Assembly: GCA_964606525.1 (NCBI GenBank)
Contig: CAZSHH010000003.1
Span: forward strand, 8,006 to 63,475
Direction of reading: 5' to 3'
DNA: 55,470 nucleotides
DNA from: an uncultured Dehalococcoidales bacterium
Lineage (GTDB): Bacteria; Chloroflexota; Dehalococcoidia; Dehalococcoidales; UBA2162
This document shows, in pieces, positions 3,775-49,446 of this stretch. Within the stretch, counting starts at the first letter, position 1. Every line of letters begins with the position of its first letter. A model generated the notes under the pieces. It worked only from the letters and a program-made list of their open reading frames with translations, had not been told where the DNA came from and searched no databases. A program made the translations under genes and the position numbers.

Positions 3775-3885
3775 TGCATATCCAAGGGAAAATCCCGAGG
3801 TAGGAAAACGATCATGCCCCTGACCAACACGGGTATGTACTATTATTGACCAAGATTTGATACCGTCTGCAGCGTCTAAAAAACA

Positions 3886-3908
3886 GAAGCCCGGATATTC
3901 CGGGCTTC
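3886..3908. terminator. GC-rich hairpin, possible terminator
   Basis: 9-bp stem GAAGCCCGG/CCGGGCTTC with loop ATATT. There is an A-run on the 5' side and only a weak T-run on the 3' side, so strand and function are uncertain. Confidence 0.3.
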
Positions 3909-4223
3909 TTGAAAAGGAGGAACAACAACACAATTTCTGCGACAGACAACCAAGGTTAAATTATTAACGCACCGTAGCATCCATATCAGTGTATATATGT
4001 TAATAATTACTTACATCATAAACAACCTTGAAGCAATAGTCAATATCATGAATCAGATAACAAGAGTAACCTGGATATCCGGGACGGAATTTTTTTGAAG
4101 TAAAGAGGCCCTAATAGTAAAATCAATAAAGTATTCCAGGCATATCAAGAAAAACGTAATAGTTAAAGCAAAACTATTGATATCAGTACACTTTTCAAGA
4201 TTGCCGATAACAAGGAAAATACA

Positions 4224-4910
4224 GTGACAACAGTACAGAAGCATAAAAATACCCGGGTAAGGCAGAAGCAAATCATCGACGCTGCCAGGAAATTGATCAT
4301 CCGGCGCGGCAGTGAACATATCAGGATCAAAGAGATCGCCGAAGCGGTGGGCTTAACCGAGGGCGCCATCTACCGTCATTTTAAAAGCAAAAAGGATATC
4401 CTGTCACTATTGATAGAAGCAATCGAAGATGACCTGGTGGGAGACATGAAAGCAGCAGCGATCAACGGTGGACCGGTTATCGATGTATTAGAAGGGGTAC
4501 TTAAAAGCCACCTTTCTGCGATCGAGCAAAGGAGGGGGATCTCCTTCCTGGTGATCGCAGAAATCATCAGCCTGGGGGATAAGAAATTGAACCAGAAGAT
4601 CTCCGGGGTGATCGCCGAATATACTGCCAATTTGAAGGAACTCCTGGCTAAAGGAAGAGAAGGCGGAGAATTTCCGGCGGATCTCGACCTGGAAGCGGCG
4701 GCGAGCCTTTTCTTCGGCATGGTACAGGGTTTGGTTAATACCTGGGCACTAAACGGGTATGACTTTAGACTTGAAGAGAAATATGAACCGCTGTGGCAGA
4801 TATACCGCCGGGCAATCTTAAATCCCGGATCGGTAAATCAAGCAAAGAGCCGGAGACGATTAGTAATAAGTAGAGTCCCGCCTGATAAAAACCGAGCGGC
4901 GACCAGGTAA
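4224..4910 (+). CDS. TetR/AcrR family transcriptional regulator
   Basis: 228-aa ORF with a GTG start. Has the N-terminal HTH typical of TetR (IIDAARKLIIRRGSEHIRIKEIAEAVGLTEGAIYRHFKSKKDIL). Confidence 0.85.
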   Translation: MTTVQKHKNTRVRQKQIIDAARKLIIRRGSEHIRIKEIAEAVGLTEGAIYRHFKSKKDILSLLIEAIEDDLVGDMKAAAINGGPVIDVLEGVLKSHLSAIEQRRGISFLVIAEIISLGDKKLNQKISGVIAEYTANLKELLAKGREGGEFPADLDLEAAASLFFGMVQGLVNTWALNGYDFRLEEKYEPLWQIYRRAILNPGSVNQAKSRRRLVISRVPPDKNRAATR

Positions 4911-4981
4911 AGATAATTACCACTACAGGTTAGTTGAAGGAGAGATGATCCGACTCATCCTGGTATAGGGAGACAGCCAGG

Positions 4982-5455
4982 CTACTTAAAAAGCCGCAGA
5001 TAGACCACAGCGTCGGTATCCCGGTCATAGTATGCAGTCCGGATGCAGTCTTCCCGATAACCGAGCCCAACATAAAACTCACGGCCCAACGTATTATTTA
5101 CAGGGGTATCGACATGGAGTCCTCTGGCTCGCTTCCGCTTCATATATTGTTCGATGCCTGCGACCAAGCGGGTGGCGATACCTTTTCTCTGCCAGTTACG
5201 ATCTACGATCAAGCCCTGGATCTGCCCCAGCCGGTTCCACTCAAAAAACTCAGCCGAGATGTAACCCAGCAGGGCGTCCCCAGCGACAGCAACCAGTACC
5301 ACACCATTTTTATCAAGCAAGATCCGGTGGATTGCCGACAACTGGCCCCGCAGCTGCCGGGTATTCCAACCGGCAGCTTTGATCAGCCGGCGGATACCGG
5401 CATCATCAGCAGCATACCGCCGGATGGTAATCGCTTCCATGTCAATTCGTGCCAC
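4982..5455 (-). CDS. GNAT family N-acetyltransferase
   Basis: 157-aa ORF with the acetyl-CoA binding block LIVDRNWQRKGIATRLV (Q/RxxGxA-type). The start may be the internal ATG (MEAITIRRY). Confidence 0.8.
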   Translation of the reverse strand: MARIDMEAITIRRYAADDAGIRRLIKAAGWNTRQLRGQLSAIHRILLDKNGVVLVAVAGDALLGYISAEFFEWNRLGQIQGLIVDRNWQRKGIATRLVAGIEQYMKRKRARGLHVDTPVNNTLGREFYVGLGYREDCIRTAYYDRDTDAVVYLRLFK

Positions 5456-5532
5456 TTTCTTATTTTATCAAAAGACAAGAACCAACAAGATTTCTGCGAT
5501 ACACATTATAAAAAATATGGTATAAAAAATAT

Positions 5533-15328: not shown

Positions 15329-16573
15329 TCAGGGATGATACTGCCGTACAATTTCAGCGACGGCACGAACATTTTCAATCCTGGCCTCATCGGGAATACC
15401 GACATCACCGTTGATTATCAAACCACCACCCTTCCCTACCACATCGATCAGCTTCCGGCAGTAAGCTCTAACCTGGTCAGGCCTGCCGCCGATCATCATC
15501 GAGGAAGGAACGCCCCCTTCGATACAAACTGTATCACCCAGGACCGCTTTCGCTTTAAAGAGATCGGTACGCTCAAACCAATAAACGGCTTTACCGCGGG
15601 GAATATCCTTAATGATTTCCAGGCGGGAAGTACAATCGCCTTCAAAAAGGGGATTGGGTGTGAAACCAGCCTCGATACAGGCCAGCATAAGTTTCTTAAG
15701 TGAAGGCCAGTAGAAGGTCATAAACTGCTTGGGCGACATAAAGCCATCGAGCCCTTTATGGAGCGGGATAAACACCCGGTTGGCTCCTGTAGTTTTACTG
15801 ACCGAGATGGCCTGGTCGATCAAGGCCGGTAAGGCTTTATCGACAGCGGCCAGCAACTTATCCGGATTGCGGTACATATCGAGCATGATGCCATGGGTAC
15901 CGCGAAAAAAATCACCGATATAGTCGAACGGGGCATAGGTTGAGGAAACAAACTGGCGGGGGAAGCCCCGGTGCTCCATTGCCCGGGTCAAATCACCCGC
16001 AGCAGCAATCATTTTCTGGGCTTCCTGGCCGGCTTTTATCAAAGATGCCAAAGCACCGGCGACCTCCGGGCGGCCGAAGACGGAGACATAAGAAGGCATC
16101 CGGGTATACCAGGCCCAACTCAGCGGTCGCAGCCGCTGCAGCGGCTGGAGGGCGCCCCAGGCACGGCCGGAAAAGCGGCGGAGGAGAAAGTCTGAAGGAT
16201 CATCGAGGAAGGCATCATATTCCTCAACCTTCATATATTCACCCTCGACAAACTGGTAAGTGACCTCAGGTTTGCCACCGTGGCCGGGCCAGACCAGCTG
16301 TTTATAATCAAGTATCTCTAAAGTTGGCGCCCAGGCAAGGAGACGGAAAGTATCGGGAAAATTATCCGGCTGGAAATCATTCATGAATTTAATCATGGCA
16401 GCGGACAATTTGGCATAATCGTGCATTGCTTCGGCAAAGCCAAGTCCGGCATATATTACCGGGAAATAGGTCACAAAAGGAGCGAAAGCAACCCGTGCGG
16501 ACGGCCGCAAGGCGACCGCGTCCTGGATCCTCTTCACACGTTCCTGAAACAGTTCTTCCGGACGTTCGTCCAT
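15329..16573 (-). CDS. uroporphyrinogen-decarboxylase (URO-D) fold family protein, function unknown
   Basis: 414-aa ORF with SD AGGAGGT. The C-terminal block GKGGGLIINGDVGIPDEARIENVRAVAEIV resembles the URO-D / MtaA-type TIM-barrel end. It is a paralog of 39778..41109. Confidence 0.65.
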   Translation of the reverse strand: MDERPEELFQERVKRIQDAVALRPSARVAFAPFVTYFPVIYAGLGFAEAMHDYAKLSAAMIKFMNDFQPDNFPDTFRLLAWAPTLEILDYKQLVWPGHGGKPEVTYQFVEGEYMKVEEYDAFLDDPSDFLLRRFSGRAWGALQPLQRLRPLSWAWYTRMPSYVSVFGRPEVAGALASLIKAGQEAQKMIAAAGDLTRAMEHRGFPRQFVSSTYAPFDYIGDFFRGTHGIMLDMYRNPDKLLAAVDKALPALIDQAISVSKTTGANRVFIPLHKGLDGFMSPKQFMTFYWPSLKKLMLACIEAGFTPNPLFEGDCTSRLEIIKDIPRGKAVYWFERTDLFKAKAVLGDTVCIEGGVPSSMMIGGRPDQVRAYCRKLIDVVGKGGGLIINGDVGIPDEARIENVRAVAEIVRQYHP

Positions 16574-16848: not shown

Positions 16849-18666
16849 CTAGCGGCCCATGGACTTCTTCAACGCCTGGTCGATCCAGACATAGCGGACC
16901 CAGGAATCGCCGGAGAAGTAACCGACACTGAGTTCACCGGAATAATTCTTAAGCCACGGCCACCACATCACGGTCTGGGGGTAGCGGGGGGCGGGGAGGC
17001 AGTAAGCCTGGTCAAGCAAGTATTTCATCAGTTCCCGGGTAATCTTCATCGCACCATTAAAATCAGATACCGCTGCAGCCTGGGATTCAGCTACCTTCTC
17101 CTCGATATAGGGATCGTTTACCTTGGCAGCATTCACCCAGTTATTGATATTAGAATAGTTCGCCTGTTCCGGCCAGGTGGAGGGCGGGGCATAGAAGAGG
17201 GCGAACAACTGCTCATAGCTGGCAGCGAAAGCGATAGGGATAATGGAACCGCTTTCTTTCGGTTCCAGCGTTAAATCGATACCTGCCTGTGCCCACTGCC
17301 CTTTGATAATGGAATAATAATCAACCTCTTTTTCAGTATTGGTGAGGATGATAGAGGTTTTCAAGCCATTGGGATAACCGGCTTCAGCCAGCAGGGCTTT
17401 TGCTTTTTCCGGATTATAAGTAAAGAGCTCCTTGATGGTATCCGGACAATCCGGGTCGTTCAAGCCAAGATAGATATCGTGATAGGCGACAGTATCCCAG
17501 GTAGGCCAACTCAGTATTTGTCCAAGGCCTCGATACAGGCTATCATTGATTGCTTCAAAATCAGTAGCCATAAACAGGGCGCGGCGGACTTTAATATCGG
17601 TGAAAGGCTCCTTGTCGACCCGGATATAGGCCGGGCTGACGCTCCAGGTGGCGGCCGGGGCACTCTTTAATTCGGCAGCACTCTTCAACATCTGTTCGGC
17701 ATCTTCCGGATCGAAACCACCACGCATATCGAGTTTGGCAGTACGTAAAGCAGCTTCCTGAGTCGACAAATCCACCAGGATAAAATACTTAACATTATCG
17801 ATATACGGCAGTTGACTACCTTTCCCCGGCCCGATGGGGTCTTTCATCCAGTACTTGTCATTTTTTTTCAGGGAGACCATGCTGCCGGAAACATAGTCGG
17901 TAATGATGTATGGGCCGGTACCGACATCGTTCTTGGGATCATTCATGGCCGCCCCATATTTATCATAGACTTCTTTGGGATAAATGATAGTCAGGCCGAG
18001 GACACGCATCGAGGCTGCCAGATGATCCTTAAAGGGGAGTGTCATTTGAAGTTCCCAGGGGCCGGTCTTTTCAACATAGAGGCCTCTTGTCGTCGGGAAC
18101 AGCTTATAGTTCATCGAATCGGGATTATTATGAAATTCATCCATGCAGAATTTCACGTCGTCGGCAGTCACTTCACGGCCGGCGACGAGGCGGCTGGCAG
18201 CGTTATCCGGGTCAAGGGCAAAATTAATACCCTGGCGGACTTTAATGGTAGTAACGACTTCCTGCTTTTCCGCGTTCACGACCCAGGAAATGTCTTCGGC
18301 AACAATACCCACGTTAAGGTCAGGAATATTGGTGCTTTCCGACCAGGTAAATTCCTTCGTCCCATACCCCCCGGCATTACCCCGGGTCCAGTCGCCATCC
18401 CAGAGATATTCGTGACTCTGCAGGTGAGGCCAGGCTTTACCAAGCTGCAGCAGATCGAAAGTTGGTTCGGCACCCAACAGCAGGGAAATTGAGCCACCAT
18501 ACTGGGGTTGGGTTTTATCAGGAACGGTAGTGACCGGTTTCGTAGTGGGCACGGTCGTAACCGGTTTCGTAGTCGTAGTTTCTGCCGGTTCACTAGTGCA
18601 ACCAGCCATCAGGAGTAATACGACAACCAGGAAACAGGCAAAGAAAAATAGTGTCTTCTTTATCAT
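16849..18666 (-). CDS. ABC transporter substrate-binding lipoprotein, family 5 (paralog 3, divergent)
   Basis: 605-aa ORF with SD AAGGAGGG. Has lipobox LMAGCTS, a linker with a tandem 9-aa repeat TTKPVTTVP x2 (27-nt period near 18533..18586) and a PQYGGSISLL core. Confidence 0.85.
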   Translation of the reverse strand: MIKKTLFFFACFLVVVLLLMAGCTSEPAETTTTKPVTTVPTTKPVTTVPDKTQPQYGGSISLLLGAEPTFDLLQLGKAWPHLQSHEYLWDGDWTRGNAGGYGTKEFTWSESTNIPDLNVGIVAEDISWVVNAEKQEVVTTIKVRQGINFALDPDNAASRLVAGREVTADDVKFCMDEFHNNPDSMNYKLFPTTRGLYVEKTGPWELQMTLPFKDHLAASMRVLGLTIIYPKEVYDKYGAAMNDPKNDVGTGPYIITDYVSGSMVSLKKNDKYWMKDPIGPGKGSQLPYIDNVKYFILVDLSTQEAALRTAKLDMRGGFDPEDAEQMLKSAAELKSAPAATWSVSPAYIRVDKEPFTDIKVRRALFMATDFEAINDSLYRGLGQILSWPTWDTVAYHDIYLGLNDPDCPDTIKELFTYNPEKAKALLAEAGYPNGLKTSIILTNTEKEVDYYSIIKGQWAQAGIDLTLEPKESGSIIPIAFAASYEQLFALFYAPPSTWPEQANYSNINNWVNAAKVNDPYIEEKVAESQAAAVSDFNGAMKITRELMKYLLDQAYCLPAPRYPQTVMWWPWLKNYSGELSVGYFSGDSWVRYVWIDQALKKSMGR

Positions 18667-19702: not shown

Positions 19703-20626
19703 CTACCCGATCTGTTGAAGCAAACGCTGGGCAGTGATACCGGCAGCTACCCCGTCACCCACAGCAGCAGCGATCTGCCGGGGAGAACCACGCCGGATAT
19801 CTCCGGCGGCAAGAACAAAGGGGATTTCGGTTTCCATATCCGAATTAACGATAACCTGGCCGTCATTATCGAGGGGCACGATGCCGTCAAGATACCCTGT
19901 ATTCGGCACCACCCCGATATGAACCAGCACACCACTCACAGGCAGATCTACTTCAGTGCTATCTACATTATTGCGGACCCGAACCCGCTCCACCCGGACA
20001 CCACCCGCAACTGCAGTCACCACTGAATCCGGGACAAACTCTATTTTAGGTTCGGAAGCCAGACGATCCTGCAAGACCGGGGCTGCCCGGAGTTCACCGC
20101 GGCGGTGAATGAGAAAAACCTGGGAAGCCAGCCGGGCCATATAAATGGCTTCCGAAACAGCGGCATCACCCCCACCGCAAACAGCCACCGCTTGCCCGGT
20201 GAAACGGCTGCCGTCACATAAGGCACAAGTAAAGACTCCTTTATCCTGAAACGCATCCTCACCGGGGACATTTAATTTTTTCATGCGGGAGCCGCCGGCG
20301 AGAATAACGACCGCCGTGGTATAACCGCGTCCGCCGGTAAAACCTACCCACCGGCAGTTATCAAAGAGTTCGAGGCTGTTGACTTCAGCTTGTTTGTACT
20401 GCAGGCCAAATGCGGCTGCTTGAGCCACCATGGCGGAAGCCAATTCAGCCCCGGCGATCCCTTCCGGAAAACCGGGGTAGTTCTCGATCAGAGCAACGTT
20501 TTTCGGGTATCCGCCGAAGCTGTCCTTTTCCAGCAACAGGGTCCGGTATTTCGCCCGGGCTAAATACAGCCCAGCCGTCAAACCAGCCGGGCCGCCGCCG
20601 ACAATGACTGCATCCCAGTCAAACAT
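19703..20626 (-). CDS. thioredoxin-disulfide reductase-like flavoprotein (low-Mr TrxR type)
   Basis: 307-aa ORF with the FAD motif VIVGGGPAGLTAG, the redox dithiol CALCDG (TrxB has CATCDG) and the NADPH motifs GGGDAAVSEA and IHRRGELRA. It starts 29 nt after the stop of the selenoprotein gene. Confidence 0.8.
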   Translation of the reverse strand: MFDWDAVIVGGGPAGLTAGLYLARAKYRTLLLEKDSFGGYPKNVALIENYPGFPEGIAGAELASAMVAQAAAFGLQYKQAEVNSLELFDNCRWVGFTGGRGYTTAVVILAGGSRMKKLNVPGEDAFQDKGVFTCALCDGSRFTGQAVAVCGGGDAAVSEAIYMARLASQVFLIHRRGELRAAPVLQDRLASEPKIEFVPDSVVTAVAGGVRVERVRVRNNVDSTEVDLPVSGVLVHIGVVPNTGYLDGIVPLDNDGQVIVNSDMETEIPFVLAAGDIRRGSPRQIAAAVGDGVAAGITAQRLLQQIG

Positions 20627-20655: not shown

Positions 20656-22257
20656 TTAATACCGGAAATAAACCGGAACCAGGTTTTTATATTTTGCCAC
20701 AAGACGGGACCAGTTTTGGGGCAACTCGATCTTCCTGGTAACGAAAGTATTATTAAAACCACCGGCACTGCGCAGCAAGGCCATAAAAGCGCCGGGGCCG
20801 CCAGCGACGATCAACATGACGTCCTCAGGACTTAAGGGCGGGCGCGGTGGTGTGGCAGCGGACCTGGTATTGACGGCAATATACTCGAGCACACGGGTCC
20901 TGGTCCAACCAGCCCGGGATAATATTTTCGCCCAGGTAGGATTGATGATGAAACAAGAAAGCGCCACAGCGCCCATATTGGCCAGAGCCTGTAAGATGCC
21001 ATCAGCACTCGTTTCAATAGGGATGGCCTGCATAAAGGAATTGGGGAAAAAGACCGTGACGGTGCTGTCTGTATTCTGATAACCACGTTCAACATGGAGC
21101 GGCGGCCAGGGAGACTCTTCTTCATTTTCGCCAATCACCAGGGTGTATTTACCAGGATTACCGATAACCCCCATATCTTCGACTGCCTTACGTGCACCGC
21201 CGATATTTTTTACGATCAGGCCGACCGCCCGGCCGATGGCGGCATTGGCGATATTCCCCGGGCTGAGTGAACCCGAAGAAGAATTGATAAGGATATCATG
21301 ATGGACCGGGCCGTTAACCGCCCAGAAAGGAGCCCAGGAACCGGTACTTACTTCGAAAGTATCGAACCGTGACTTCGGATCCATCAAGGCCTGGACGGCG
21401 GCAATAAGCACCGGCAGATAAGTAGGCAAACAACCAGCCATAACCGCATTGACGGCGATTTTCTCCACCGTGGCTTTACCCAGGCGGGGGATAACCTTAG
21501 TCACCACGTAATCTGCCGGTAAGTCAGTTCCGGCCAGCATTTCTGCGACAGCCTCTTCGGTCGGCGGAATGATGGGGAGACCGTCCGTCCAGCCCCGGCG
21601 GTAAAAGAAACGGTTAACCTCGGACAGACTGCCTTTAAAAACCAAACGGGAAAGGTTTTCCGTTTCTTTTTGGGGTGAAGCCTCACCGGGTGTAAGCGGC
21701 CGAGTCAGGCCGGCAATGATATCATCCATCACGGAGGAAATACCCGAGGCGATATCTTCAGCGATGTTGGACTCACATAAAACCGGTTCCGGCACGATGC
21801 GTACTGAAGGCAAACCTTTCCCGGAAGCAGCCGAATGCGCATCATTCACAAAACCGGTATTGATCAAGACGACAACCGGGGTCCCCAATTTTTCAATAGC
21901 CACGCCGTTGTACACAACGAACTTGGTGCAGGACCCTCAGTCACCGACGGCAGCAACGACTGCATCCACGCCTTTCACCCAATCCGTAAAGGCCGCCCGG
22001 TTTTCCGTCACCGACTCGTCTACGTTGGGCGCCCGGGAATCATAAAGACTGGTCTCGATACCAGGAAACCTGGCTTTCAGATTTTTCTCCACCTCGGCCA
22101 GCATAGGTTTCGCCGCCCGTTTGAAATTTGCGAACAAGCCGATCTTCTTCCCTGCCAGCGAATCCAGGCGGGGAGAAATCCCCTGTAACGGGACAGGGTC
22201 TACTTCTGCCCAAGGATTAAGGACTTCATAACTACCGGCTGTTTTTGGCACATCCAT
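20656..22257 (-). CDS. two-domain selenoprotein, U-G-S-C motif (in-frame TGA at 21937..21939 read as Sec107); 533 aa
   Basis: Track ORFs 21937..22257 and 20656..21915 are in the same frame and are separated only by one TGA: ...VVAAVGD-U-GSC-TKFVVYNGVAIEKLG... SD AAGGGGTG lies only before the ATG at 22257, and there is no SD in the 21 nt after the TGA. The paralog at 47746..49446 has its TGA at the aligned position. Confidence 0.7.
21905..21920 (-). promoter_or_regulatory. weak candidate SECIS-like hairpin
   Basis: On the mRNA, UC-GUUG-UGUA-CAAC-GG forms a 6-bp stem (including one G.U pair) with a 4-nt loop containing G-U. It starts about 16 nt after the UGA. GGGUCC just after the UGA can also pair with GGACCC about 50 nt downstream. 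Confidence 0.3.
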
Positions 22258-22507
22258 CGCAACACCCCTTCTTCTTTTGGAATACCTGCTATACCTGCCA
22301 TGGGTTTGAGAAACCGGAGCGGAAATCCCGGCGACGGTAATGACCGGGTATTATCCCAGCTTGACCAAATCCCAGGGATTCGAGCCAAAGTGGTATAAGA
22401 AAAATTCTGGTTGATTATACACCCGGCCAGTCCGGTTACTGTCAAATAATTGTCATTGATGAAGATGATGATTGCCGGCCGCGCTGTATACAGATATAAT
22501 AGGGGGC

Positions 22508-23209: not shown

Positions 23210-23364
23210 AGCGTCATAAAATAACTCTTCGATCGTTGACGGCTAAAGCCAAGGCTATGCCGACAGCGGCCAGAAGTCCTGAAAAGCTTCGAGGGTATCA
23301 AAAGGAAACTTTTATACCTCCCGTGTTAGGAAAGGAGAGTTGCCTCAGAGTGTGTGTGTTTCTG

Positions 23365-23392: not shown

Positions 23393-23670
23393 ATTATTAG
23401 CATCAAAAAGAAAGACCTCCGAGCTTTATACCTCAACCCTGTAATGGGGTATGGTATTCAGCCGGTGTCCCGATAGAATCGAGACTGAGAGTATTGCAGG
23501 AAACGGCAATGCCTCCCGGATGCGGAAAGGAGATATCCCATAACTGGGACTGGTTAAGGGACAGGTGTCGTCAAGAGAAGAAACCGGTTGCTTCCGACAG
23601 CAGATAAGCGCCGATGCCATCAATACGCCTCCGGGTCCTGCATAAAGGTAAAAATATGGGAGGGTTAAAA

Positions 23671-25146
23671 ATGTCAGACTACAAGATGCTTATCGGTGGG
23701 GAATTGTTGGAAGCGGAATCGGGGAAACCCTTCCCCGTGATGAACCCGGCAAATGGAGAACAATTCGCCACAATCCCACTGGGGGACGTAAAGGACGTCG
23801 CCAAGGCAGTAAGCGCCGCCAAGAAGGGTTTCCCCGGTTGGGCACAGGTACCCACACAGGCACGGGCAGAGGCACTGCGCCAGATAGCAGCAGGACTGCG
23901 CGCCCGGATGGAAGAAATCATCAAGCTGGAAATCCAGAACCATGGAACGCTGGCGCCAATGGCCCGCGGCATGATGATGGGGGTCCCGGCTACGCTGGAA
24001 AAAGCGGCCGCGACCAGCCAGTTCCTCTGGGAAGAGTCCAGCAGTGACATAATGAGCAACCGGGGCAGTATCGCCTATATACACCGGGAACCCATCGGCA
24101 TCTGTGCCCTGATCACACCTTGGAACGTACCGTTGATGCAGGCAGTATCCAAGCTGGCACCGGCCATGGTGATGGGAAATACCTGCATCATTAAGCCGCC
24201 CAGCATCGATTCAGCGACGACACTGATACTGGGGGAAATCATTGCCAAACTGAGTAAAATCATCCCACCGGGAGTGGTCAATATCATCACCGGGCCGGGC
24301 GGGGTTACCGGCAACGCCCTGGCGGCACATCCGGACATCGCCCGGATAGATTTTACCGGGAGTTCCGAGACAGCGAAAGCCATCATGGCCGCGGCGGCCG
24401 GTACGCTAAAGCGGCTCAGCCTGGAAGCCGGGGGTAAAAACCCCTTCATCGTAATGGAAGATGCCGACATCGAACACGCCGCCATGACAGCGGTGATGGG
24501 CCAGACAGCCAATTCCGGACAAATCTGCATCTCACCCGGGCGCTACCTGGTCCATGAGAAAGTACATGACGAATTCGTGGAAAAATGGGCGGCGGCGGCC
24601 AAGACGATAACCGTAGGCGACCCAATGGATCCGGCAGCAAGGATGGGACCACTGGTCAGCGCCGAACACCGGGACCGTGTTGAAAGCTATATCAAATCTG
24701 CGGTCAACGAAGGGGCGACCATGGTTACCGGCCATTCCGGCCCGCTGCCGGAGCCACTAAACAAAGGATATTATGTTTTGCCCACGCTTTTCACCGGAGT
24801 TACACCGCAAATGAAAGTCTACCGCGAAGAAATCTTCGGGCCAGTAGCCTGCATCACCAAATATTCCGGGAAGGACAACGTGGTGGACATGGCTAACGAT
24901 AACAACCTGGGTCTTTCCGCTTCGATATGGACAAGGGATTTAGCCAAAGGGATCCGGACCGCCCACCAGGTGCAGGCCGGCACCATATACGTAAACGACA
25001 ACATGGTCATGGGGGCGCTGCATTTCGGCGGAGTCAAGGAGAGCGGGTTGGGAAAAGAAGGGGGACAACGGGGTTTCGATGAATACTGTGAGATGAAAGC
25101 CGTGTACGTGAATATTGGTGAAGGCGGAAAACCAGGCCGCATGTAA
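23671..25146 (+). CDS. NAD(P)-dependent aldehyde dehydrogenase (paralog 1)
   Basis: The ATG at 23671 follows GGGAGGG, giving N-terminus MSDYKMLIGGE. The catalytic Cys lies in NSGQICISPGRY, the Glu motif is LEAGGKNPF, and the cofactor motif is FTGSSETAKAI. The track start at 23614 is probably an upstream extension. Confidence 0.9.
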   Translation: MSDYKMLIGGELLEAESGKPFPVMNPANGEQFATIPLGDVKDVAKAVSAAKKGFPGWAQVPTQARAEALRQIAAGLRARMEEIIKLEIQNHGTLAPMARGMMMGVPATLEKAAATSQFLWEESSSDIMSNRGSIAYIHREPIGICALITPWNVPLMQAVSKLAPAMVMGNTCIIKPPSIDSATTLILGEIIAKLSKIIPPGVVNIITGPGGVTGNALAAHPDIARIDFTGSSETAKAIMAAAAGTLKRLSLEAGGKNPFIVMEDADIEHAAMTAVMGQTANSGQICISPGRYLVHEKVHDEFVEKWAAAAKTITVGDPMDPAARMGPLVSAEHRDRVESYIKSAVNEGATMVTGHSGPLPEPLNKGYYVLPTLFTGVTPQMKVYREEIFGPVACITKYSGKDNVVDMANDNNLGLSASIWTRDLAKGIRTAHQVQAGTIYVNDNMVMGALHFGGVKESGLGKEGGQRGFDEYCEMKAVYVNIGEGGKPGRM

Positions 25147-25202: not shown

Positions 25203-26660
25203 GTGTCGGATTATAAGATGTTGATAAACGGAGAACTGGTGGAAGGGGCAGCGGGGAAGACTTTCCCGGTAACCAATCCGGCGACGGGACAGCAATTTGC
25301 CACGATCGCCCTGGGTGGACAGGAAGAAGTAAATAAAGCAGTAGCAGCTGCCCAAAAAGCATTTCCGGTATGGTCGAAGATGCCGGTACAAGCAAGAGGA
25401 GAAGTACTACGCCGAATCGGGGCGGGGATACGGGAAAGGGCGGAGGAAATCGCCAAACTGGACAGCATGAACCACGGCTCGCCGATTTCAGTCACCCGCA
25501 ACCGGGTGATGGGTGCATCATTCGGGTTGGAAGGGGCGGGCATGGCCATGCAGCGGATCCAAGACCAGAGTGTCGACCTGGGCAACCAGGAACTGGCCTA
25601 CGTACGCCATTACCCCATTGGGATATGTGCCCTGATCACACCCTGGAACGTACCGCTGCTGATGTCGGTGAGTAAAATGGGGCCGGCTTTGATCGCCGGC
25701 AATACCTGCGTGATGAAACCACCCAGCACCAATTCGGCGACCACGCTGATCCTGGGGGAAATCATCACAAAACTAGGGAACATGGTTCCGCCGGGAGCAA
25801 TCAATATCATCACGGGGCCCGGGGGGACGACGGGTAATGCCCTGTGTTCCCATCCCGACGTGGGGATGATCGGGTTCACCGGGAGCTGCGAAGCAGGCAA
25901 AGCGATCATGGCCGCGGCCAGCGGGACAATCAAAAAACTCAGCCTGGAGCTGGGTGGTAAAAATCCGTTCATCGTGTTGGAAGACGCCGACCTCGACCTC
26001 ACGGCGGAGTGGGCGGCGGCCTGCCAGACCTCCAATTCCGGCCAGATCTGTGCCTCTCCGGGACGCTACCTAGTACATGAGAAAGTACATGACGAATTCG
26101 TCGCCAAATTCATCGCTGCAGCGAAGAAAGTCAAGGTGGGCGATCCCCTGGACCCGGCGACACAAATGGGCCCGCTGGTCAGTGAAGAACACCTGCGGAA
26201 AGTGGAGGGCTACATTCGAGGTGCGATCGCCGAGGGGGCGACACTGGCGCTAGGACAACCCGGCCCACTACCCCCTCCGTTAGACAAGGGTTTCTACGTC
26301 CTCCCGACTGTTCTGACGGGGGTAACGCCGAAGATGAAAGTGTACCGGGAGGAGATATTCGGCCCGGTAGCGTGCATCACCAAATACACCGATAAAGATG
26401 ATGTCATCGCCATGGCTAACGATAATACCTACGGACTGACGGCTTCCGTCTGGTCGAAAGACGTCAATAAAGCCATCCGCACGGGACATCAAATTGAAGC
26501 CGGTACTATATATGTTAACGACCACATGATCATGGGCGGACTGCCTTTCGGCGGTGTCAAGGAAAGCGGTTTTGGCAACGGCAACATTGAAGAATATACA
26601 GACGTCCGGTCGATCTATGTCCGCATCGGCGAGGGGAAGGTCAACCGGGTATTGATATAA
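25203..26660 (+). CDS. NAD(P)-dependent aldehyde dehydrogenase (paralog 2)
   Basis: GTG start 8 nt after GGGAGGA, giving MSDYKMLINGE. Carries LELGGKNPF, NSGQICASPGRY and FTGSCEAGKAI. Confidence 0.9.
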   Translation: MSDYKMLINGELVEGAAGKTFPVTNPATGQQFATIALGGQEEVNKAVAAAQKAFPVWSKMPVQARGEVLRRIGAGIRERAEEIAKLDSMNHGSPISVTRNRVMGASFGLEGAGMAMQRIQDQSVDLGNQELAYVRHYPIGICALITPWNVPLLMSVSKMGPALIAGNTCVMKPPSTNSATTLILGEIITKLGNMVPPGAINIITGPGGTTGNALCSHPDVGMIGFTGSCEAGKAIMAAASGTIKKLSLELGGKNPFIVLEDADLDLTAEWAAACQTSNSGQICASPGRYLVHEKVHDEFVAKFIAAAKKVKVGDPLDPATQMGPLVSEEHLRKVEGYIRGAIAEGATLALGQPGPLPPPLDKGFYVLPTVLTGVTPKMKVYREEIFGPVACITKYTDKDDVIAMANDNTYGLTASVWSKDVNKAIRTGHQIEAGTIYVNDHMIMGGLPFGGVKESGFGNGNIEEYTDVRSIYVRIGEGKVNRVLI

Positions 26661-35625: not shown

Positions 35626-35689
35626 GAAGGGCACAGGGTACAACAAAAACAGCCGGTAACCTGTTCCGGATGGTGAATTGGAGGTTGAA

Positions 35690-38092: not shown

Positions 38093-38181
38093 ATAGCCGT
38101 GGTCTTCTCCAGGAAACTGGAAATATACGCGCAAGACCAGTCGAAACTCGATGTGCCGCATCCTGATATTGGGAGATGGTG

Positions 38182-39093
38182 ATGGTACAAGGAACAATTT
38201 TCGACATCCAGACCTATTCTCTGCATGATGGACCTGGCATCAGGACAACCGTCTTCCTTAAAGGCTGTCCCCTGAGTTGCGTCTGGTGTCAGAATCCGGA
38301 ATCTCAGCGTCGTCAGCCTGAATTACTATTCTATTGGGAGAGATGCACCGGCTGCGGCCAATGTGTGCCGGTGTGCCCCAGACAGGCTATCTCGGTGTCA
38401 GATGGAAGATCGCATACCAAGAGAAACCTCTGCGAAGGCTGCGGAAAATGCGCCGATACGTGTCTGAATACCGCCCGCATACTAAGCGGCAGAGTTTGGT
38501 CAGCAACCGACGTTTTTACCGAAGTTAAGAAAGATGACGCTTTCTACAGAAGAAGTGGCGGTGGAATTACCCTCTCCGGAGGAGAACCATTGACTCAGCC
38601 TGAATTCTCGACAGCTATCCTGTCGTTGTGCAAACGAGCCGGCCTGCACACTGCCATCGAGACAACAGGCATGGCCAAGTGGGAAACTCTTGAACAGGTA
38701 CTCGAATACGTCGACCTGGTATTGTATGACCTGAAACATATGGATTCCAGGTCTCATCAAAGGTGTACCGGCATAGGCAACGACCTTATTCTTGAGAACA
38801 TAAAGCAAATTCGAAGGAACTATACTATCCCGATAATAGCCCGAATACCGGTTATCCCAGGCTACAATGCAGACATGCAGAACATTAAAGCTACAGCAAG
38901 ATTCATTGTAAATGAAATAGGGCAAGATACAAAAGTGAACATTCTGGCTTATCACCGATTAGGAGAAAGTAAATACGACCGCCTCGAAAGAGATCAAAGT
39001 GGAGTGAACATCACTCCACCCACTGCAGGACAGATGGCAGCAATTCAGAAGACTATTGAAGCTCTGGGCCTGACAGTTACTATTGGCGTGTGA
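38182..39093 (+). CDS. glycyl-radical enzyme activating protein (radical SAM)
   Basis: GTIFDIQTYSLHDGPGIRTTVFLKGCPLSCVWCQNPE (CxxxCxxC), plus two ferredoxin-like clusters CTGCGQCVPVCP and CEGCGKCADTC. SD GGGAG abuts the first ATG (38176), so the ATG at 38182 is preferred. Confidence 0.9.
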   Translation: MVQGTIFDIQTYSLHDGPGIRTTVFLKGCPLSCVWCQNPESQRRQPELLFYWERCTGCGQCVPVCPRQAISVSDGRSHTKRNLCEGCGKCADTCLNTARILSGRVWSATDVFTEVKKDDAFYRRSGGGITLSGGEPLTQPEFSTAILSLCKRAGLHTAIETTGMAKWETLEQVLEYVDLVLYDLKHMDSRSHQRCTGIGNDLILENIKQIRRNYTIPIIARIPVIPGYNADMQNIKATARFIVNEIGQDTKVNILAYHRLGESKYDRLERDQSGVNITPPTAGQMAAIQKTIEALGLTVTIGV

Positions 39094-41109: not shown

Positions 41110-41280
41110 GCGTGACTTTGCTATCTTGATAAAGTTGAAAATCTGCTGAAATCCTGAAACGGTTTTACAGGATAAGAAAATATTTAAGATAGAGAAAAGT
41201 TCTGCCAGGTTAACCCGGTAATAACCGGGGTTAGCGGCAGGACCAGCTCTCATTTTTACTTGGAACAGGAGGTAGTTCAG

Positions 41281-46759: not shown

Positions 46760-47719
46760 CTATTGCCGGGCGATCGGCTTCAGCGGAATTTTCGGATCCG
46801 GGAAGCCCGAGCCCATAAGGGCGAACATCATGGTCAGTGCCCTGTCATCGATGCGCTGGAAGTCTTCCCGATGAACGGTCTCAGGTCTGGGGAAAGGCCA
46901 GTCCATTTGCAATAGCGCCTGCTGCACGGTCACCCCTGAGCCATGCAGTTCTCTGGCGCGCGTAATACAGTAAGCCAATGCCGCCCCGCCATCCTCCGGC
47001 GGGATCATGCCGTCATACCCGGGCATGCTATGCCAGGGTGCTGTCGGCTTTGGTTCCCCGGCAGGCCGCCTGCCGCTGAGAGGAAAACTGACACCGGCAG
47101 GTATAAAGCAGAAGACTGCCACGCCGGTATCATCGACGGTTCCTATTTCGTACGCCAGGGACATCATGATGGAAGTAGTGGCTGACTTGGCGGCACAATA
47201 ATTGGCCGGTCCCGGAGGGTCCATGAAAGCAGTGGCCGTGTAGGCGACCACTCCATGATGTCTATTCAGCATCGCGGGTACGAACAGTTGGATGCCGATA
47301 AGCGTACCGCGGGCTGATATTTCATACTGGCGGTCGAGTTGCTTGATCGTAGACTCGAGAATGGGCGCCCCCATGGACATATCCATGGCATTACTCACAT
47401 AGATATCTACCTTGCCAAAAGTATCAATCGCCCGGCGTGCCATCGATTTCATCGAGTCTTCGTCAGACACATCGGTCTCTATAAACAGCGCAGTGCCCGG
47501 CTGGTTCTCATTGTTGATGATTTCTGCGGCGGCTCTACCCCGGTCCGGTGAGAATTCAGCAATGATTAACTTCGCTCCTAACCAGGCCAGGCTCCTTGCC
47601 GTGCCAAGTCCAACATTCCCGCCGGCGCCAGTGACAACGGCGACCTCGCCTGCCAGCATACCCTTATTAAGCTTTGTCTTGTCCATCGCCAGCGGGCCCA
47701 CAGCAAGCTCTTTAACCAT
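46760..47719 (-). CDS. SDR family oxidoreductase (extended C-terminus)
   Basis: 319-aa ORF with SD AAAGGAGGA. Carries EVAVVTGAGGNVGLGTA, SNAM and the catalytic YCAAKSA. Confidence 0.75.
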   Translation of the reverse strand: MVKELAVGPLAMDKTKLNKGMLAGEVAVVTGAGGNVGLGTARSLAWLGAKLIIAEFSPDRGRAAAEIINNENQPGTALFIETDVSDEDSMKSMARRAIDTFGKVDIYVSNAMDMSMGAPILESTIKQLDRQYEISARGTLIGIQLFVPAMLNRHHGVVAYTATAFMDPPGPANYCAAKSATTSIMMSLAYEIGTVDDTGVAVFCFIPAGVSFPLSGRRPAGEPKPTAPWHSMPGYDGMIPPEDGGAALAYCITRARELHGSGVTVQQALLQMDWPFPRPETVHREDFQRIDDRALTMMFALMGSGFPDPKIPLKPIARQ

Positions 47720-47745: not shown

Positions 47746-49446
47746 TCACGGAAGAATATTCCCGGGTAGTCCACAGGTGCCATCGCGACAGTCCATCGGC
47801 GATGGCATTCGGAGAGGTCTGGCATCCTTCTTAACGCCGGCCTTCGGTATCCACGGGTCGATGGATAAGGTACGGACGTAGTGAAAGTCCGTCGTCATCC
47901 AGAACGGATTCCATTCGCCACCGACGACGATAAAGTTAAGGCCCTCAGCCGTCAGGGGGCGCATTCTTCTGGTGCCATCGTTCTTCCCATGCTCTGCCAG
48001 GTAAGAGGCCAGCTTCAATTTAGTGTCGAAACCCTCGTTCTTGAGATTCTTCGCCGCGAGCGGATCGACGATGAAGGTGGCCCCGCCCAGTCCGAGTGAT
48101 TTGATAATCTGGGCCATGCGGTCGGCATGTCCGTCGCCAAAGCCGATTACGGTCCAACCCATGAATAAGGAGACCGTGTTTTCGCTCGCCTTAAAACCAT
48201 GCTGGACGTGCAGCGGTTCCCAGACACTCAGTTCTTCATTCTCACCGCAGCACATGTTATTGTAGTTAACACCGTTGCCGGTGGTCGCAGTAAAATTCTC
48301 GCCAATCTTGGCGCCGGCAAGGTTAATGCTCATCAATGTCCACGTTCGGCCCAGGACCGAGTTGGCATAATTAAATGGACTGAGGGCACCCGAACTGCAA
48401 TTCATGCCGATCTCATTACGGATGGGCCCGTTAACGACCATCATGCTGATGAAAGAAGTCGTCGAGCTGGGCATTGACGCCTGTTTGGAAGCTGCCACAG
48501 CCAGCAGCACCGGCAGGTGTTCCGGCCGGCATCCTGCCATGACCGCATTGACGGCGACTTTCTCAACCGTATACTCGAACCGTTCCTCGTGAGTCGTGAC
48601 TGCCATCCGCCCCACCACCTCTTGCGGATCGTGGTCGGTACCAGTCAGCATCTCCGCCACACGCTCCTCGGTTGGCAGCACGATAGGCAGGCCATCCGTC
48701 CACGCATTCTCCAGGAAAAGCCGGTGCAGGTTGTCCTCGGTGTCCGGCGGCAGAAGCCGGTTGTGCTTCGGCCGTTTCACAATTATCGGGTTTCTCTCTT
48801 CTTCAGTGAGGGGCCGGGTCAGGGCATCGACGATCTCCTGCATAAGGGGACGGCCGGTAATCGGGTCCTCTTTATCGATGTAGCCGTGCAGCACATCCCG
48901 TGGTACGAAGGCCACCGGATGCGGTGGATAGCAGAAGCGCAACATCATACCGTGTGCCTGGCCGTTTAACATGATGAAGTCGGCGAATCGGGACGTGACC
49001 ATCGGAGCCGTCGGTACGCCGCGGTCCTCCAGATTGCGAGCGAATTCGGCGAGACTCGCCGAACAGCCGTCTCAACCACCAACCCCAAGGACGGCAACGG
49101 CACCTTTCGCTGCTATCTCGTCCCAAAGCGCGGGATCGTTGGTGAACATGCCACCCTGCTTACGCCGCAGTTCCGTTTTTAGAGAAGGCATGTTGCGGGA
49201 GAACCAGTCATGCACTTCCTGCATGAATTCCCAGGCGCCGGCGAAACCGGTCTCGACCAGATAGACGGTTTTCCCCTCAATGCTCCCGGAGCGGGGAGCC
49301 ATGTGGACAGGCCGGACTTCGCCTGTCGGCTGCGTGTACGGGTCCTGGATATTGAGACCTGACTCTGGCGTCAGACTCTGCCCGAACACTCCGCTCGGTT
49401 GCCCCCTGGGGTCTAACACGTTAAGTAAGGCCTTGCTGTTTTTCAT
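47746..49446 (-). CDS. two-domain selenoprotein, U-D-G-C motif (in-frame TGA at 49072..49074 read as Sec125); 566 aa; paralog of 20656..22257
   Basis: Track ORFs 49072..49446 and 47746..49002 are in the same frame: ...AVLGVGG-U-DGC-SASLAEFARNLEDRGVPTAPMVTSRFADF... The strong SD GAGGAGGAG lies only before the ATG at 49446. The C-terminal domain is homologous to the paralog (WTDGLPI, VEKxAVNAVMAGC, VNGP). Confidence 0.7.
49045..49063 (-). promoter_or_regulatory. candidate bacterial SECIS hairpin
   Basis: On the mRNA, 8 nt after the UGA, lies a perfect 19-nt palindrome UUCGGCGAG-U-CUCGCCGAA. It forms a 7-8 bp stem with apical loop (A)GUC(U). Confidence 0.45.

What the first reader, a model, noticed from the sequence alone, without database searches (positions are those of the whole stretch)
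20656..22257. Two track ORFs are one gene joined by an in-frame TGA, giving a U-G-S-C selenoprotein
Reading the minus strand across the gap between ORFs 21937..22257 and 20656..21915 gives GTC GGT GAC TGA GGG TCC TGC ACC AAG TTC GTT GTG TAC AAC GGC, i.e. VGD-U-GSC-TKFVVYNG. Both ORFs share one frame and are interrupted by a single TGA (21937..21939). No SD or ATG lies in the 21 nt between the TGA and the GTG that the track uses as a start. The only SD (AAGGGGTG) precedes the ATG at 22257. U-x-x-C is a classic selenenylsulfide redox motif. The local context (GKKIGLF ... DAVVAAVGD-U-GSC ... LGTPVVVL) recalls the Sec region of GrdB/PrdB-type reductase selenoproteins, and I recall an NCBI family named for exactly this tetrapeptide. 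A second copy in this window (47746..49446) has its TGA at the aligned position, which argues against a random nonsense mutation. Standard gene callers would miss this or annotate it as two hypothetical proteins.
Basis: partly seen in the sequence, partly recalled or inferred. Interest (0 to 1): 0.8.

Follow-up and report, generated by a model that had tools for sequence, protein, structure and literature searches.

The report
Two mis-split UGSC-domain selenoprotein genes
Two genes in this window each carry an in-frame TGA that almost certainly encodes selenocysteine, so they are long fused members of the known but uncharacterised "UGSC" selenoprotein family, which gene callers routinely cut in two.

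Summary
On the minus strand, 22257..20656 is one reading frame with a single in-frame TGA (21939..21937, VGD-U-GSC). A 32%-identical paralogue (49446..47746) has its TGA at the aligned position (49074..49072, GVGG-U-DGC).

The selenocysteine reading is strongly supported:
- The same codon is TGA in 75 homologous genes from several phyla and in all 12 orthologues of copy 2. It is Cys in others.
- The Pfam UGSC domain runs straight across the TGA.
- The strongest synonymous-site constraint in the whole gene lies just 3' of the TGA, over a hairpin at SECIS distance.
- TGA is an ordinary stop elsewhere in the window.

The UGSC family has been known since 2007-2008 and has Pfam and NCBIfam models. 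These proteins, however, are 533 and 566 aa. They fuse a roughly 190-aa UGSC domain to a roughly 340-aa domain with no Pfam or NCBIfam model and no convincing solved structural relative. The two modules also occur as adjacent separate genes.

A thioredoxin-reductase-like gene follows copy 1, which suggests (inferred, not shown) a selenenylsulfide reductase recycled by that flavoprotein. The GrdB/PrdB resemblance was not supported.

Verdict: real, a new member of a known kind, of moderate interest.

The parts
20656..22257 (-). Copy 1: a single 533-codon selenoprotein gene (ATG 22257, stop TAA 20658..20656), with U107, C110 and C276.
   Evidence: A full-length Cys homologue, P0094 (561 aa, VGD-C-GAC), aligns end to end.
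21937..21939 (-). Copy 1: in-frame TGA, the selenocysteine codon (U107).
   Evidence: The aligned codon is TGA in 75 hits, ATG in 10, GCC/GCT in 3 and TGC in 1.
21900..21926 (-). Copy 1: candidate SECIS hairpin, CCA-A-GU-U-CGUUG [UGUA] CAACG-GC-G-UGG. The core UCGUUG-UGUA-CAACGG lies at 21920..21905, with the apical loop 25-28 nt after the U of UGA.
   Evidence: Fold. The core is invariant in the orthologues L001, L081, L103 and L104, while flanking synonymous sites vary. The lowest synonymous variation in the gene is here. The free energy is not better than shuffled sequence (z -0.1 to -0.9).
21703..22224 (-). Copy 1: UGSC domain (residues 12-185), which spans the TGA.
   Evidence: Pfam PF24696, 105.2 bits (gathering score 25), profile positions 2-171 of 172. 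NCBIfam NF041046, 78.2 bits, below the cut-off of 125.
20659..21669 (-). Copy 1: C-terminal domain of about 337 aa with no family model. Its motifs are WTDGLPIIPPTEE, EKIAVNAVMAGC (C276) and GENEEESPW.
   Evidence: No Pfam hit at E<=1. AlphaFold2 pLDDT 94.6. The best PDB match has TM 0.26-0.29.
22263..22270 (-). Shine-Dalgarno-like AAGGGGTG upstream of the copy 1 ATG.
   Evidence: Read directly.
19703..20626 (-). Thioredoxin-reductase-like flavoprotein gene (307 aa, redox motif C-A-L-C-D-G), 30 nt downstream of copy 1. It is the proposed reductant.
   Evidence: Pfam Pyr_redox_2, 135.7 bits. The same gene follows the fusion in L081 and L103. It lies in 9 of the 80 loci, immediately downstream in L006, L016, L018, L029 and L045.
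47746..49446 (-). Copy 2: a single 566-codon selenoprotein gene (ATG 49446, stop TGA 47748..47746), with U125, C128 and C306.
49072..49074 (-). Copy 2: in-frame TGA, the selenocysteine codon (U125).
   Evidence: TGA in all 12 orthologues at 59-97% identity that cover the site.
49044..49064 (-). Copy 2: candidate SECIS hairpin, GUUCGGCGA [GUC] UCGCCGAAU. It has 9 bp, starts 10 nt after the U of UGA, and has GU in the loop.
   Evidence: It is conserved in the orthologues. L087 changes U-A to C-G, using a synonymous Cys site and a synonymous Glu site. The codons UCG GCG AGU are invariant.
48892..49347 (-). Copy 2: UGSC domain (residues 34-185).
   Evidence: Pfam PF24696, 80 bits. NCBIfam, 55.2 bits against a cut-off of 125.
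47749..48801 (-). Copy 2: C-terminal domain of the same unnamed family.
   Evidence: It aligns with copy 1 and with family members.
46760..47719 (-). Short-chain dehydrogenase gene immediately downstream of copy 2. It is a conserved neighbour in copy 2 orthologues.
   Evidence: Pfam adh_short. It is present next to the orthologue in L085, L086, L087, L088, L090 and L100.

Best explanation
Both loci are single genes whose internal UGA is decoded as selenocysteine. Each protein has two modules.

The N-terminal module of about 190 aa is a UGSC-family domain. It is a parallel alpha/beta, flavodoxin-like fold. Sec sits at the end of a beta-strand and the start of a helix, and a nearly invariant Cys lies three residues later (U-x-x-C).

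The C-terminal module of about 340 aa belongs to a large family with no model and no known function. It is the likely substrate-binding or catalytic part and carries a frequently conserved Cys (AVMAG-C).

Shown here: the reading frame, conservation of the TGA, Cys in some homologues, an RNA-level constraint with a hairpin just 3' of the UGA, the two-module architecture, and its occurrence as separate adjacent genes.

Inferred mechanism (my probability about 0.5): Sec and Cys cycle between selenol/thiol and a selenenylsulfide while an imported small organic substrate is reduced on the C-terminal module. For copy 1, the oxidised centre is re-reduced by the adjacent thioredoxin-reductase-like flavoprotein using NAD(P)H. 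In outline this resembles the Sec-dependent substrate reductases of Stickland metabolism, without being homologous to them. The substrate is unknown.
For: Frame and codon:
- There is a single in-frame TGA in each gene.
- The aligned codon is TGA in 75 hits from Dehalococcoidia, Acidobacteriota, Desulfobacterota, Burkholderiales and Oscillospiraceae, and in 12 of 12 copy 2 orthologues.
- It is Cys in P0094 and in many 50%-identity cluster representatives.
- The second Cys is conserved in 71 of 72 sequences.
- The Pfam UGSC match is continuous across the TGA.
- No SD or ATG lies after the TGA.
- TGA terminates 9 of 40 genes in the window, so the genetic code is standard.

SECIS:
- Hairpins with GU-containing loops lie at the canonical distance in both copies.
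- In three independent orthologue groups, the 11-codon windows with the least synonymous variation in the whole gene start 0-5 codons after the TGA. The values are 0.20 against 0.52, 0.33 against 0.55, and 0.17 against 0.55.
- One orthologue (L087) changes a U-A pair of the copy 2 stem to C-G.
- The copy 1 hairpin core is invariant in 5 orthologues.

Architecture:
- AlphaFold2 models are confident, with pLDDT 93.8 and pTM 0.94 for the full-length homologue, and pLDDT 94.6 for the copy 1 C-domain.
- The two modules occur as separate adjacent genes in L074 and L102.
- The family has 5195 clusters at 50% identity.

Redox partner:
- A TrxR-like gene with a CxxC motif lies directly downstream in the window and in L081 and L103. 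It is present in 9 of the 80 loci, including an Oscillospiraceae operon and the contig binned as Bathyarchaeia.

Sec use in the lineage:
- Dehalococcoidia MAGs with 46-49 selenoproteins are listed in BSepDB (PMC13326102).
Against: - No selA, selB, selD or tRNA-Sec lies in the window or in 52 related loci. The rest of the source genome could not be searched.
- The hairpin free energies are not better than shuffled sequence, nor better than the same region of non-Sec homologues.
- The TrxR-like neighbour is present in only about 11% of loci and is absent next to copy 2, which has dehydrogenases instead.
- Some homologues have Met, Ala, Gly, Ser or Phe in place of Sec, and a few lack both redox residues. 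A U/C-x-x-C redox couple is therefore not universal in the family.
- No substrate, cofactor or catalytic residue has been identified.
Confidence: 0.85

Rival explanations
1. Translation really stops at the TGA. The locus would encode a 106-aa fragment plus a separate 419-aa protein started at GTG 21915, either as two genes or as a pseudogene from a nonsense mutation.
For: This is what standard gene callers output. In some genomes the UGSC and C-terminal modules really are separate genes.
Against: The genuine split forms break about 70-130 residues after the Sec codon, at the domain boundary, and still carry the in-frame TGA inside the UGSC gene. Here the TGA cuts the UGSC domain in the middle of a continuous Pfam match. 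No RBS precedes the GTG. The TGA and the frame are conserved in more than 85 genes across phyla, and Cys forms exist.
Confidence: 0.03
2. The TGA is a sequencing or assembly error, or a strain-specific mutation of a Cys codon (TGC/TGT).
For: It is a single-base difference from a Cys codon, and the window is probably from a metagenome-assembled genome.
Against: The same TGA occurs in two paralogues in this window and in independent assemblies from many studies.
Confidence: 0.01
3. The UGA is read through, but by a standard amino acid (Trp, Cys or Gly through near-cognate or suppressor decoding, or a reassigned code) rather than by Sec.
For: The Sec machinery was not seen in the sequence available.
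Against: TGA is a normal stop for 9 of 40 genes in the window. The site aligns with Cys in a U/C-x-x-C motif of a recognised selenoprotein family. A constrained hairpin lies immediately 3' of the UGA, as Sec insertion in bacteria requires. The class Dehalococcoidia contains selenoprotein-rich genomes.
Confidence: 0.03
4. It is a selenoprotein, but the U-x-x-C site is not a flavoprotein-recycled reductase centre. It could bind a metal or metalloid. It could carry sulfur or selenium as a persulfide/perselenide relay to the C-terminal domain. It could also only regulate that domain.
For: The TrxR-like neighbour is present in only about 11% of loci. Homologues with Met, Ala or Gly at the Sec position keep the second Cys and the Cys of AVMAG-C, which fits a single-Cys chemistry. 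The adjacent solute-binding proteins belong to SBP_bac_5, a family that includes nickel binders.
Against: U/C-x-x-C at a helix N-terminus is the typical redox-active arrangement. The dedicated TrxR-like gene recurs next to the fusion in Chloroflexota, in Oscillospiraceae and on the contig binned as Bathyarchaeia. No metal-handling genes are conserved nearby.
Confidence: 0.25

Closest known systems
UGSC-containing selenoprotein family (Zhang & Gladyshev 2007, PMC1976440; 2008, PMC2398784; NCBIfam NF041046; Pfam PF24696)
   Same: The N-terminal domain is homologous (Pfam 105 and 80 bits). It has the same U-x-x-C motif, exactly UGSC in copy 1, at the same profile position. The TGA is decoded as Sec. 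The function is unknown in both cases. The 2008 paper also mentions a 'UGSC/Unknown_1' domain fusion.
   Different: The described family and the NCBIfam model are proteins of about 147 aa. The window proteins are 533 and 566 aa and fall below the NCBIfam cut-off. Copy 2 reads UDGC. The 2008 authors proposed a thioredoxin-like fold. The AlphaFold2 model instead matches flavodoxin-like alpha/beta proteins, though weakly (TM 0.4-0.5 on the target). I could not check whether 'Unknown_1' is this C-terminal domain, because Figure S1A is held only as an image.
Selenoprotein B subunits of glycine/sarcosine/betaine reductase (GrdB) and D-proline reductase (PrdB), Pfam PF07355
   Same: Both have a U-x-x-C motif in a substrate-specific reductase component. 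In both, electrons ultimately come from a thioredoxin reductase system (established knowledge). They are often encoded with substrate transporters. The working model here is functionally analogous.
   Different: No sequence relationship was detected. There was no PF07355 hit at E<=1 for the domain or for any of 71 relatives, and no such structure appeared among the Foldseek hits. No GrdA-like, GrdC/D-like or pyruvoyl-subunit genes lie nearby.
Thioredoxin-fold U/CxxC selenoproteins (Trx-like, Prx-like, DsbA-like, SelW-like)
   Same: The redox motif sits at the N-terminus of a helix, with Sec/Cys interchange among homologues.
   Different: The fold is different: five parallel strands alternating with helices. 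It is also fused to a large domain of unknown function.

Membership tests
Bacterial selenoprotein gene | An in-frame UGA that aligns with Cys (or UGA) in homologues, with coding conservation on both sides. | tested here: met
   TGA in 75 hits plus 12 copy 2 orthologues. Cys in P0094 and many cluster representatives. The Pfam domain is continuous across the codon.
Bacterial selenoprotein gene | A SECIS stem-loop immediately 3' of the UGA, with the apical loop about 16-37 nt downstream and G/GU in the loop. | tested here: met
   Hairpins lie at the right distance in both copies. The strongest synonymous-site constraint in the gene lies exactly there in 3 orthologue groups. One orthologue of copy 2 changes a stem U-A pair to C-G. 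Caveat: the folding energy is not better than shuffles, and no dedicated bSECIS predictor was available.
Bacterial selenoprotein gene | The genome encodes selA, selB, selD and tRNA-Sec. | not testable with these tools
   None lies in the 55-kb window or in 52 related loci. The class Dehalococcoidia includes selenoprotein-rich genomes (PMC13326102).
UGSC family (Pfam PF24696) | A match above Pfam's gathering score. | tested here: met
   105.2 and 80 bits against a gathering score of 25, covering profile positions 2-171 and 3-154 of 172.
UGSC family (seleno)protein, NCBIfam NF041046 (equivalog) | A score at or above the curated cut-off of 125 bits, with a single-domain protein of about 147 aa. 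| tested here: not met
   78.2 and 55.2 bits. The proteins are 533 and 566 aa. They are homologous in the domain but are not equivalogs.
UGSC family | The tetrapeptide U/C-G-S-C. | tested here: met
   Copy 1 reads U-G-S-C. Copy 2 reads U-D-G-C, which keeps U-x-x-C only.
GrdB/PrdB selenoprotein B (Pfam PF07355) | Detectable homology to the GRDB family. | tested here: not met
   No hit at E<=1 for the copy 1 N-terminal domain or for any of 71 relatives.
Thioredoxin-fold oxidoreductases | A thioredoxin fold around the U/CxxC motif. | tested here: not met
   The AlphaFold2 model shows a beta-alpha repeat with parallel strands. The Foldseek hits are flavodoxin-like FMN reductases and other Rossmann-like proteins, and no thioredoxin-fold entry is in the top 50. 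All hits are weak.

The most novel reading that the evidence does not exclude
The UGSC module, the unnamed 340-aa module and a dedicated thioredoxin-reductase-like flavoprotein would together form a previously unrecognised class of selenocysteine-dependent substrate reductases. Their catalytic domain would have no solved structural relative. The class would be widespread and multiplied into paralogues in anaerobic Dehalococcoidia, Acidobacteriota and Desulfobacterota, acting on imported organic compounds as a non-homologous counterpart of the Stickland reductases. It would follow that the classic 150-aa 'UGSC-containing protein' is generally the redox subunit of this two-component enzyme.
Probability: 0.3. 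Interest if true: 0.7.

Novelty: new member of a known kind. Interest (0 to 1): 0.4.

Why it matters
Practical value: these genes, and thousands like them, are mis-annotated in public data as a short 'UGSC' ORF plus a truncated hypothetical protein. In one search, 119 of the best 120 database homologues cover only the part of the query 3' of the TGA. The window is a clean example for correcting that.

Biological value: UGSC has been one of the most abundant environmental selenoprotein families since 2008, yet it has no known function. This work shows three things. The UGSC domain is habitually fused to, or translationally coupled with, a large domain that has no family model. The pair sometimes sits with its own thioredoxin-reductase-like gene and solute transporters. 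Sec, Cys and non-redox variants all exist. Together these give a concrete, testable entry point to the family's function in subsurface anaerobes.

Tried and rejected
1. Thermodynamic test of the SECIS: the z-scores against dinucleotide shuffles were only -0.1 to -1.1. The mean hairpin energy of Sec forms was no lower than that of non-Sec homologues. I replaced this test with the synonymous-site analysis.
2. A single consensus SECIS for all clades: RNAalifold gave different structures in different clades. One was a 4-bp GUAC/GUAC hairpin and another a long-range CAAAGU.CCUCG/CGAGGACUUUG helix. I did not pursue a covariance model.
3. GrdB/PrdB homology: no support.
4. Naming the C-terminal domain: there was no hit in Pfam at E<=1, none in NCBIfam at E<=0.01, and none in PDB sequence profiles at E<=1 beyond N-terminal noise. 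Foldseek gave only weak matches to class I fumarate hydratase and Toblerone-fold amidohydrolases (TM below 0.3), which I do not accept as homology.
5. Finding the source contig by exact protein look-up: not on record.
6. Looking for tRNA-Sec in the window and in 52 related loci: none found.
7. Comparing with 'Unknown_1' of Zhang & Gladyshev 2008: the figure panel is an image and the dataset text is truncated.
8. A pyruvoyl-type self-processing role for the AVMAG-C cysteine: rejected, because Ala replaces it in 48 of the 117 sequences tabulated.
Full report
**Observation.** On the minus strand, 22257..20656 translates as one 533-codon frame. Its single internal stop is TGA at 21939..21937, in the context AVVAAVGD-TGA-GSCTKFVVYNG. 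AAGGGGTG (22270..22263) precedes the ATG at 22257. Nothing resembling a ribosome-binding site lies in the 21 nt between the TGA and the GTG that an ORF finder uses at 21915. A second gene, 49446..47746, has one internal TGA at 49074..49072, in the context LGVGG-TGA-DGCSAS. The two proteins are 32.5% identical over 492 residues, and their TGAs fall in the same alignment column. A six-frame scan for other ORF pairs joined by one TGA found no further credible case in the window. The only correction is that copy 2 reads U-D-G-C.

**Is the TGA a selenocysteine codon?**
- *Family.* With Cys substituted for the stop, residues 12-185 of copy 1 match Pfam PF24696 'UGSC family' at 105 bits, and residues 34-185 of copy 2 match at 80 bits (gathering score 25). 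The match is continuous across the TGA. NCBIfam NF041046 'UGSC family (seleno)protein' is also hit, but below its curated cut-off (78 and 55 bits against 125).
- *Conservation.* A scan of GTDB species-representative genomes returned 80 loci in which the whole 533-aa query aligns in one frame. The codon aligned to U107 is TGA in 75 tblastn hits. These come from Dehalococcoidia, Acidobacteriota, Desulfatiglans and other Desulfobacterota, Burkholderiales, Oscillospiraceae, and one contig binned as Bathyarchaeia. The codon is ATG in 10 hits, GCC/GCT in 3 and TGC in 1. A metagenome scan with copy 2 gave 12 orthologues at 59-97% identity that cover the site, and all have TGA.
- *Cys forms.* Full-length Cys forms exist. 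P0094 reads VGD-C-GAC, and many 50%-identity cluster representatives read CGSC. The Cys three residues downstream is conserved in 71 of 72 sequences.
- *Genetic code.* TGA is an ordinary terminator for 9 of 40 genes in the window, including copy 2 itself, so the code is standard.

**SECIS.** Both copies have a hairpin at the distance expected for a bacterial SECIS.
- Copy 1 has UCGUUG-UGUA-CAACGG (21920..21905), extendable to 21926..21900.
- Copy 2 has GUUCGGCGA-GUC-UCGCCGAAU (49064..49044).

Their free energies are not better than shuffled sequence, and not better than the same region of non-Sec homologues. Thermodynamics alone is therefore uninformative. The comparative signal is clear, however. 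I built codon alignments of three independent orthologue groups and measured synonymous variation at amino-acid-invariant columns. In each group, the 11-codon windows with the least synonymous variation in the entire gene start 0-5 codons after the TGA:

| Orthologue group | Variation just after the TGA | Variation elsewhere in the gene |
|---|---|---|
| Copy 2 | 0.20 | 0.52 |
| Copy 1 | 0.33 | 0.55 |
| More distant Dehalococcoidia | 0.17 | 0.55 |

In copy 2 orthologues the codons UCG GCG AGU are invariant. L087 changes a U-A stem pair to C-G, using a synonymous Cys site and a synonymous Glu site. The copy 1 hairpin core is identical in W1, L001, L081, L103 and L104, while neighbouring third positions vary. 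This RNA-level constraint sits exactly where a SECIS must be.

**Sec machinery.** None is present in the window or in 52 related loci. The source genome could not be reached. The closest relatives are Dehalococcoidales MAGs. Dehalococcoidia MAGs with 46-49 selenoproteins are listed in BSepDB (PMC13326102). This requirement is therefore plausible but untested.

**What the protein is.** The UGSC-containing protein is a known selenoprotein family of unknown function. It was first noted in Hyphomonas neptunium and in an Olavius symbiont (PMC1976440). [quoted passage not shown] A 'UGSC/Unknown_1' fusion was also mentioned there (PMC2398784). Reviews up to 2026 still list it as uncharacterised.

The window proteins are not the 147-aa form. 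After the UGSC domain comes a domain of about 340 aa with the motifs WTDGLPIxPPTEE, EKIAxNAVMAG(C/A) and GENEExSPW. This domain has no Pfam hit at E<=1 and no NCBIfam hit at E<=0.01. It has no PDB sequence-profile match.

An exhaustive HMMER search with the Cys homologue found 5195 clusters at 50% identity. They include full-length non-Sec forms, ORFs truncated at the TGA, and C-domain proteins of about 345 aa. In one search, 119 of the best 120 hits are ORFs that cover only the part of the query 3' of the TGA, and every source name shown is 'hypothetical protein'. Gene callers split the close relatives into 106-118 aa plus 418-427 aa.

**Structure.** AlphaFold2 gives confident models:
- Full-length P0094: pLDDT 93.8, pTM 0.94.
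- Copy 1 C-domain: pLDDT 94.6.

The N-terminal module is a beta-alpha-beta parallel-sheet domain. The Sec position lies between strand 102-108 and helix 111-126 (P0094 numbering). Its weak Foldseek matches are flavodoxin-like FMN reductases and other Rossmann-like proteins, not thioredoxin folds. The best matches of the C-domain are class I fumarate hydratase (E 6.5e-4, TM 0.26-0.29) and Toblerone-fold cyclic amide hydrolases (E about 1e-2, TM below 0.2). These are too weak to count as homology, so I treat the fold as having no solved close relative.

**Modularity and context.** The two modules also occur as separate genes.
- In L074 (Oscillospiraceae), a UGSC gene with its own in-frame TGA (3879..4421) is followed 10 nt later by a C-domain gene (4431..5513). 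Then come a fused copy with a TGA, a TrxR-like gene and an SBP_bac_5 gene.
- In L102 (soil), a stand-alone UGSC selenoprotein (NGVGD-U-GSC) overlaps the start of a stand-alone C-domain gene by ATGA.

The fusion is therefore the joined form of a two-component unit.

In the window, copy 1 is followed after 30 nt by a 307-aa thioredoxin-reductase-like flavoprotein (Pyr_redox_2, motif CALCDG). After that come a response regulator and SBP_bac_5/URO-D genes. This order is kept in L081 and L103. The flavoprotein is present in 9 of the 80 loci. Copy 2 is instead followed by a short-chain dehydrogenase that is conserved in its orthologues. Dehydrogenases of this type occur in 15-17 of the 80 loci. Otherwise the context is variable and catabolic: ABC transporters, a carboxylesterase and a glycyl-radical enzyme. 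Many loci carry tandem paralogues.

**Mechanism.** The following points are shown: two modules; Sec and Cys in U-x-x-C at a helix N-terminus; Sec/Cys interchange among homologues; and an occasional dedicated TrxR-like partner.

The following is inferred. The pair forms a selenenylsulfide during reduction of a substrate bound by the C-domain. It is then recycled by the flavoprotein with NAD(P)H. This is functionally analogous to GrdB/PrdB-type selenoprotein reductases but not homologous to them, since no PF07355 signal was found. I put about 0.5 on this mechanism and more than 0.9 on the selenoprotein status.

There are complications. Distant branches replace Sec with Met (gut Firmicutes/Bacteroidota), Ala (Actinobacteria), Gly, Ser or Phe, while usually keeping the second Cys. 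The Cys of AVMAG-C is kept in all 23 forms that lack the first redox residue but keep the second Cys. Ala at that position occurs 45 times out of 48 together with an intact U/C-x-x-C. This suggests, without proving, that Cys110 can pair either with Sec107 or with the C-domain Cys. The sequences are phylogenetically non-independent, and I could not measure distances in the model.

**Rivals.** True termination or a pseudogene, an assembly error, and non-Sec read-through are each unlikely (0.03 or less), for the reasons given above. A non-reductase role for the U-x-x-C site, such as metal or metalloid binding or sulfur/selenium transfer, remains a real mechanistic alternative (about 0.25).

**Novelty and score.** The family and its Sec codon are established knowledge and have Pfam and NCBIfam models. 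A UGSC fusion was already mentioned in 2008. I therefore class the finding as a new member of a known kind. Its value is twofold. It corrects an annotation error. It also exposes a very large C-terminal domain family with no model, which partners the UGSC module and sometimes has a dedicated reductase. Interest: 0.4.

Noticed in passing
window 23215-23353 and 23405-23548 (+): Two tandem Moco (molybdenum cofactor) riboswitch aptamers (75 and 60 bits, gathering score 36) lie directly upstream of three consecutive aldehyde-dehydrogenase-family genes (23614-25146, 25203-26660, 26694-28151). NAD-type Aldedh genes are an unusual regulon for this riboswitch, and the tandem arrangement is notable.
   Followed up: no
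L054, L055, L057, L059, L060, L063-L067, L069, L071 (codon coordinates): Homologues at 34-42% identity replace Sec with Met (DMGSC; 10 rumen and gut Firmicutes/Bacteroidota loci) or Ala (DAGSC; Actinobacteria), while keeping the downstream Cys. Sec or Cys replaced by Met or Ala is unusual for a redox selenoprotein family.
   Followed up: partly
alignment of 117 full-length family members; window codons 21430-21432 (C276) and 48529-48531 (C306): The Cys of the C-domain motif AVMAG-C is kept in all 23 forms that lack the first redox residue but keep the second Cys. Ala at this position occurs 45 times out of 48 together with an intact U/C-x-x-C. This hints at alternative redox partners for the invariant Cys, but the pattern is confounded by phylogeny.
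   Followed up: partly
L056 6292 (JAWBZV010000017, binned as Candidatus Bathyarchaeia): A contig binned as archaeal carries the fusion with an in-frame TGA, followed at once by a 10-bp hairpin (GAAGUUCCUG-GCA-UGGGAACUUU), which is a bacterial-style SECIS inside the coding region. A TrxR-like gene lies next to it. This could be mis-binning or horizontal transfer.
   Followed up: no
L005 3835, L014 1621, L051 3786, L068 3847; L089, L093, L095, L097: Further UGSC-like paralogue types with other in-frame TGA motifs lie within a few kb of the main copies: GH-U-SSC about 2.4 kb upstream in Desulfobacterota loci, and GVAG-U-PGC near copy 2 orthologues. Many loci also hold tandem copies, so the family is heavily multiplied within genomes.
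   Followed up: no
L102 3-1528; L074 3879-5513: Stand-alone UGSC selenoprotein genes are translationally coupled to stand-alone C-domain genes, by an ATGA overlap in L102 and a 10-nt gap in L074. The classic short UGSC protein may therefore generally be one subunit of a two-component enzyme.
   Followed up: partly
window 35678-39093 (+), 39778-41109 (+), 41260-42816 (+): A glycyl-radical enzyme (PFL-like plus Gly_radical) lies with its activase, a URO-D-like protein and a carboxylesterase. Related glycyl-radical enzyme genes occur in 4 of the related loci, for example L005 8527-10929, just downstream of the UGSC fusion.
   Followed up: no
window 10961-12805, 13139-14968, 16849-18666 (-), 15329-16573 (-): Three paralogous SBP_bac_5 lipoprotein-type solute-binding genes, with Thr/Pro-rich linkers, flank a URO-D-family gene just downstream of copy 1 and its flavoprotein. 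No permease or ATPase genes lie between them.
   Followed up: no
window 44226-45461 (-): An aconitase X (AcnX, PF04412, 327 bits) large-subunit-like gene lies about 2.3 kb downstream of copy 2, after the two short-chain dehydrogenase genes.
   Followed up: no
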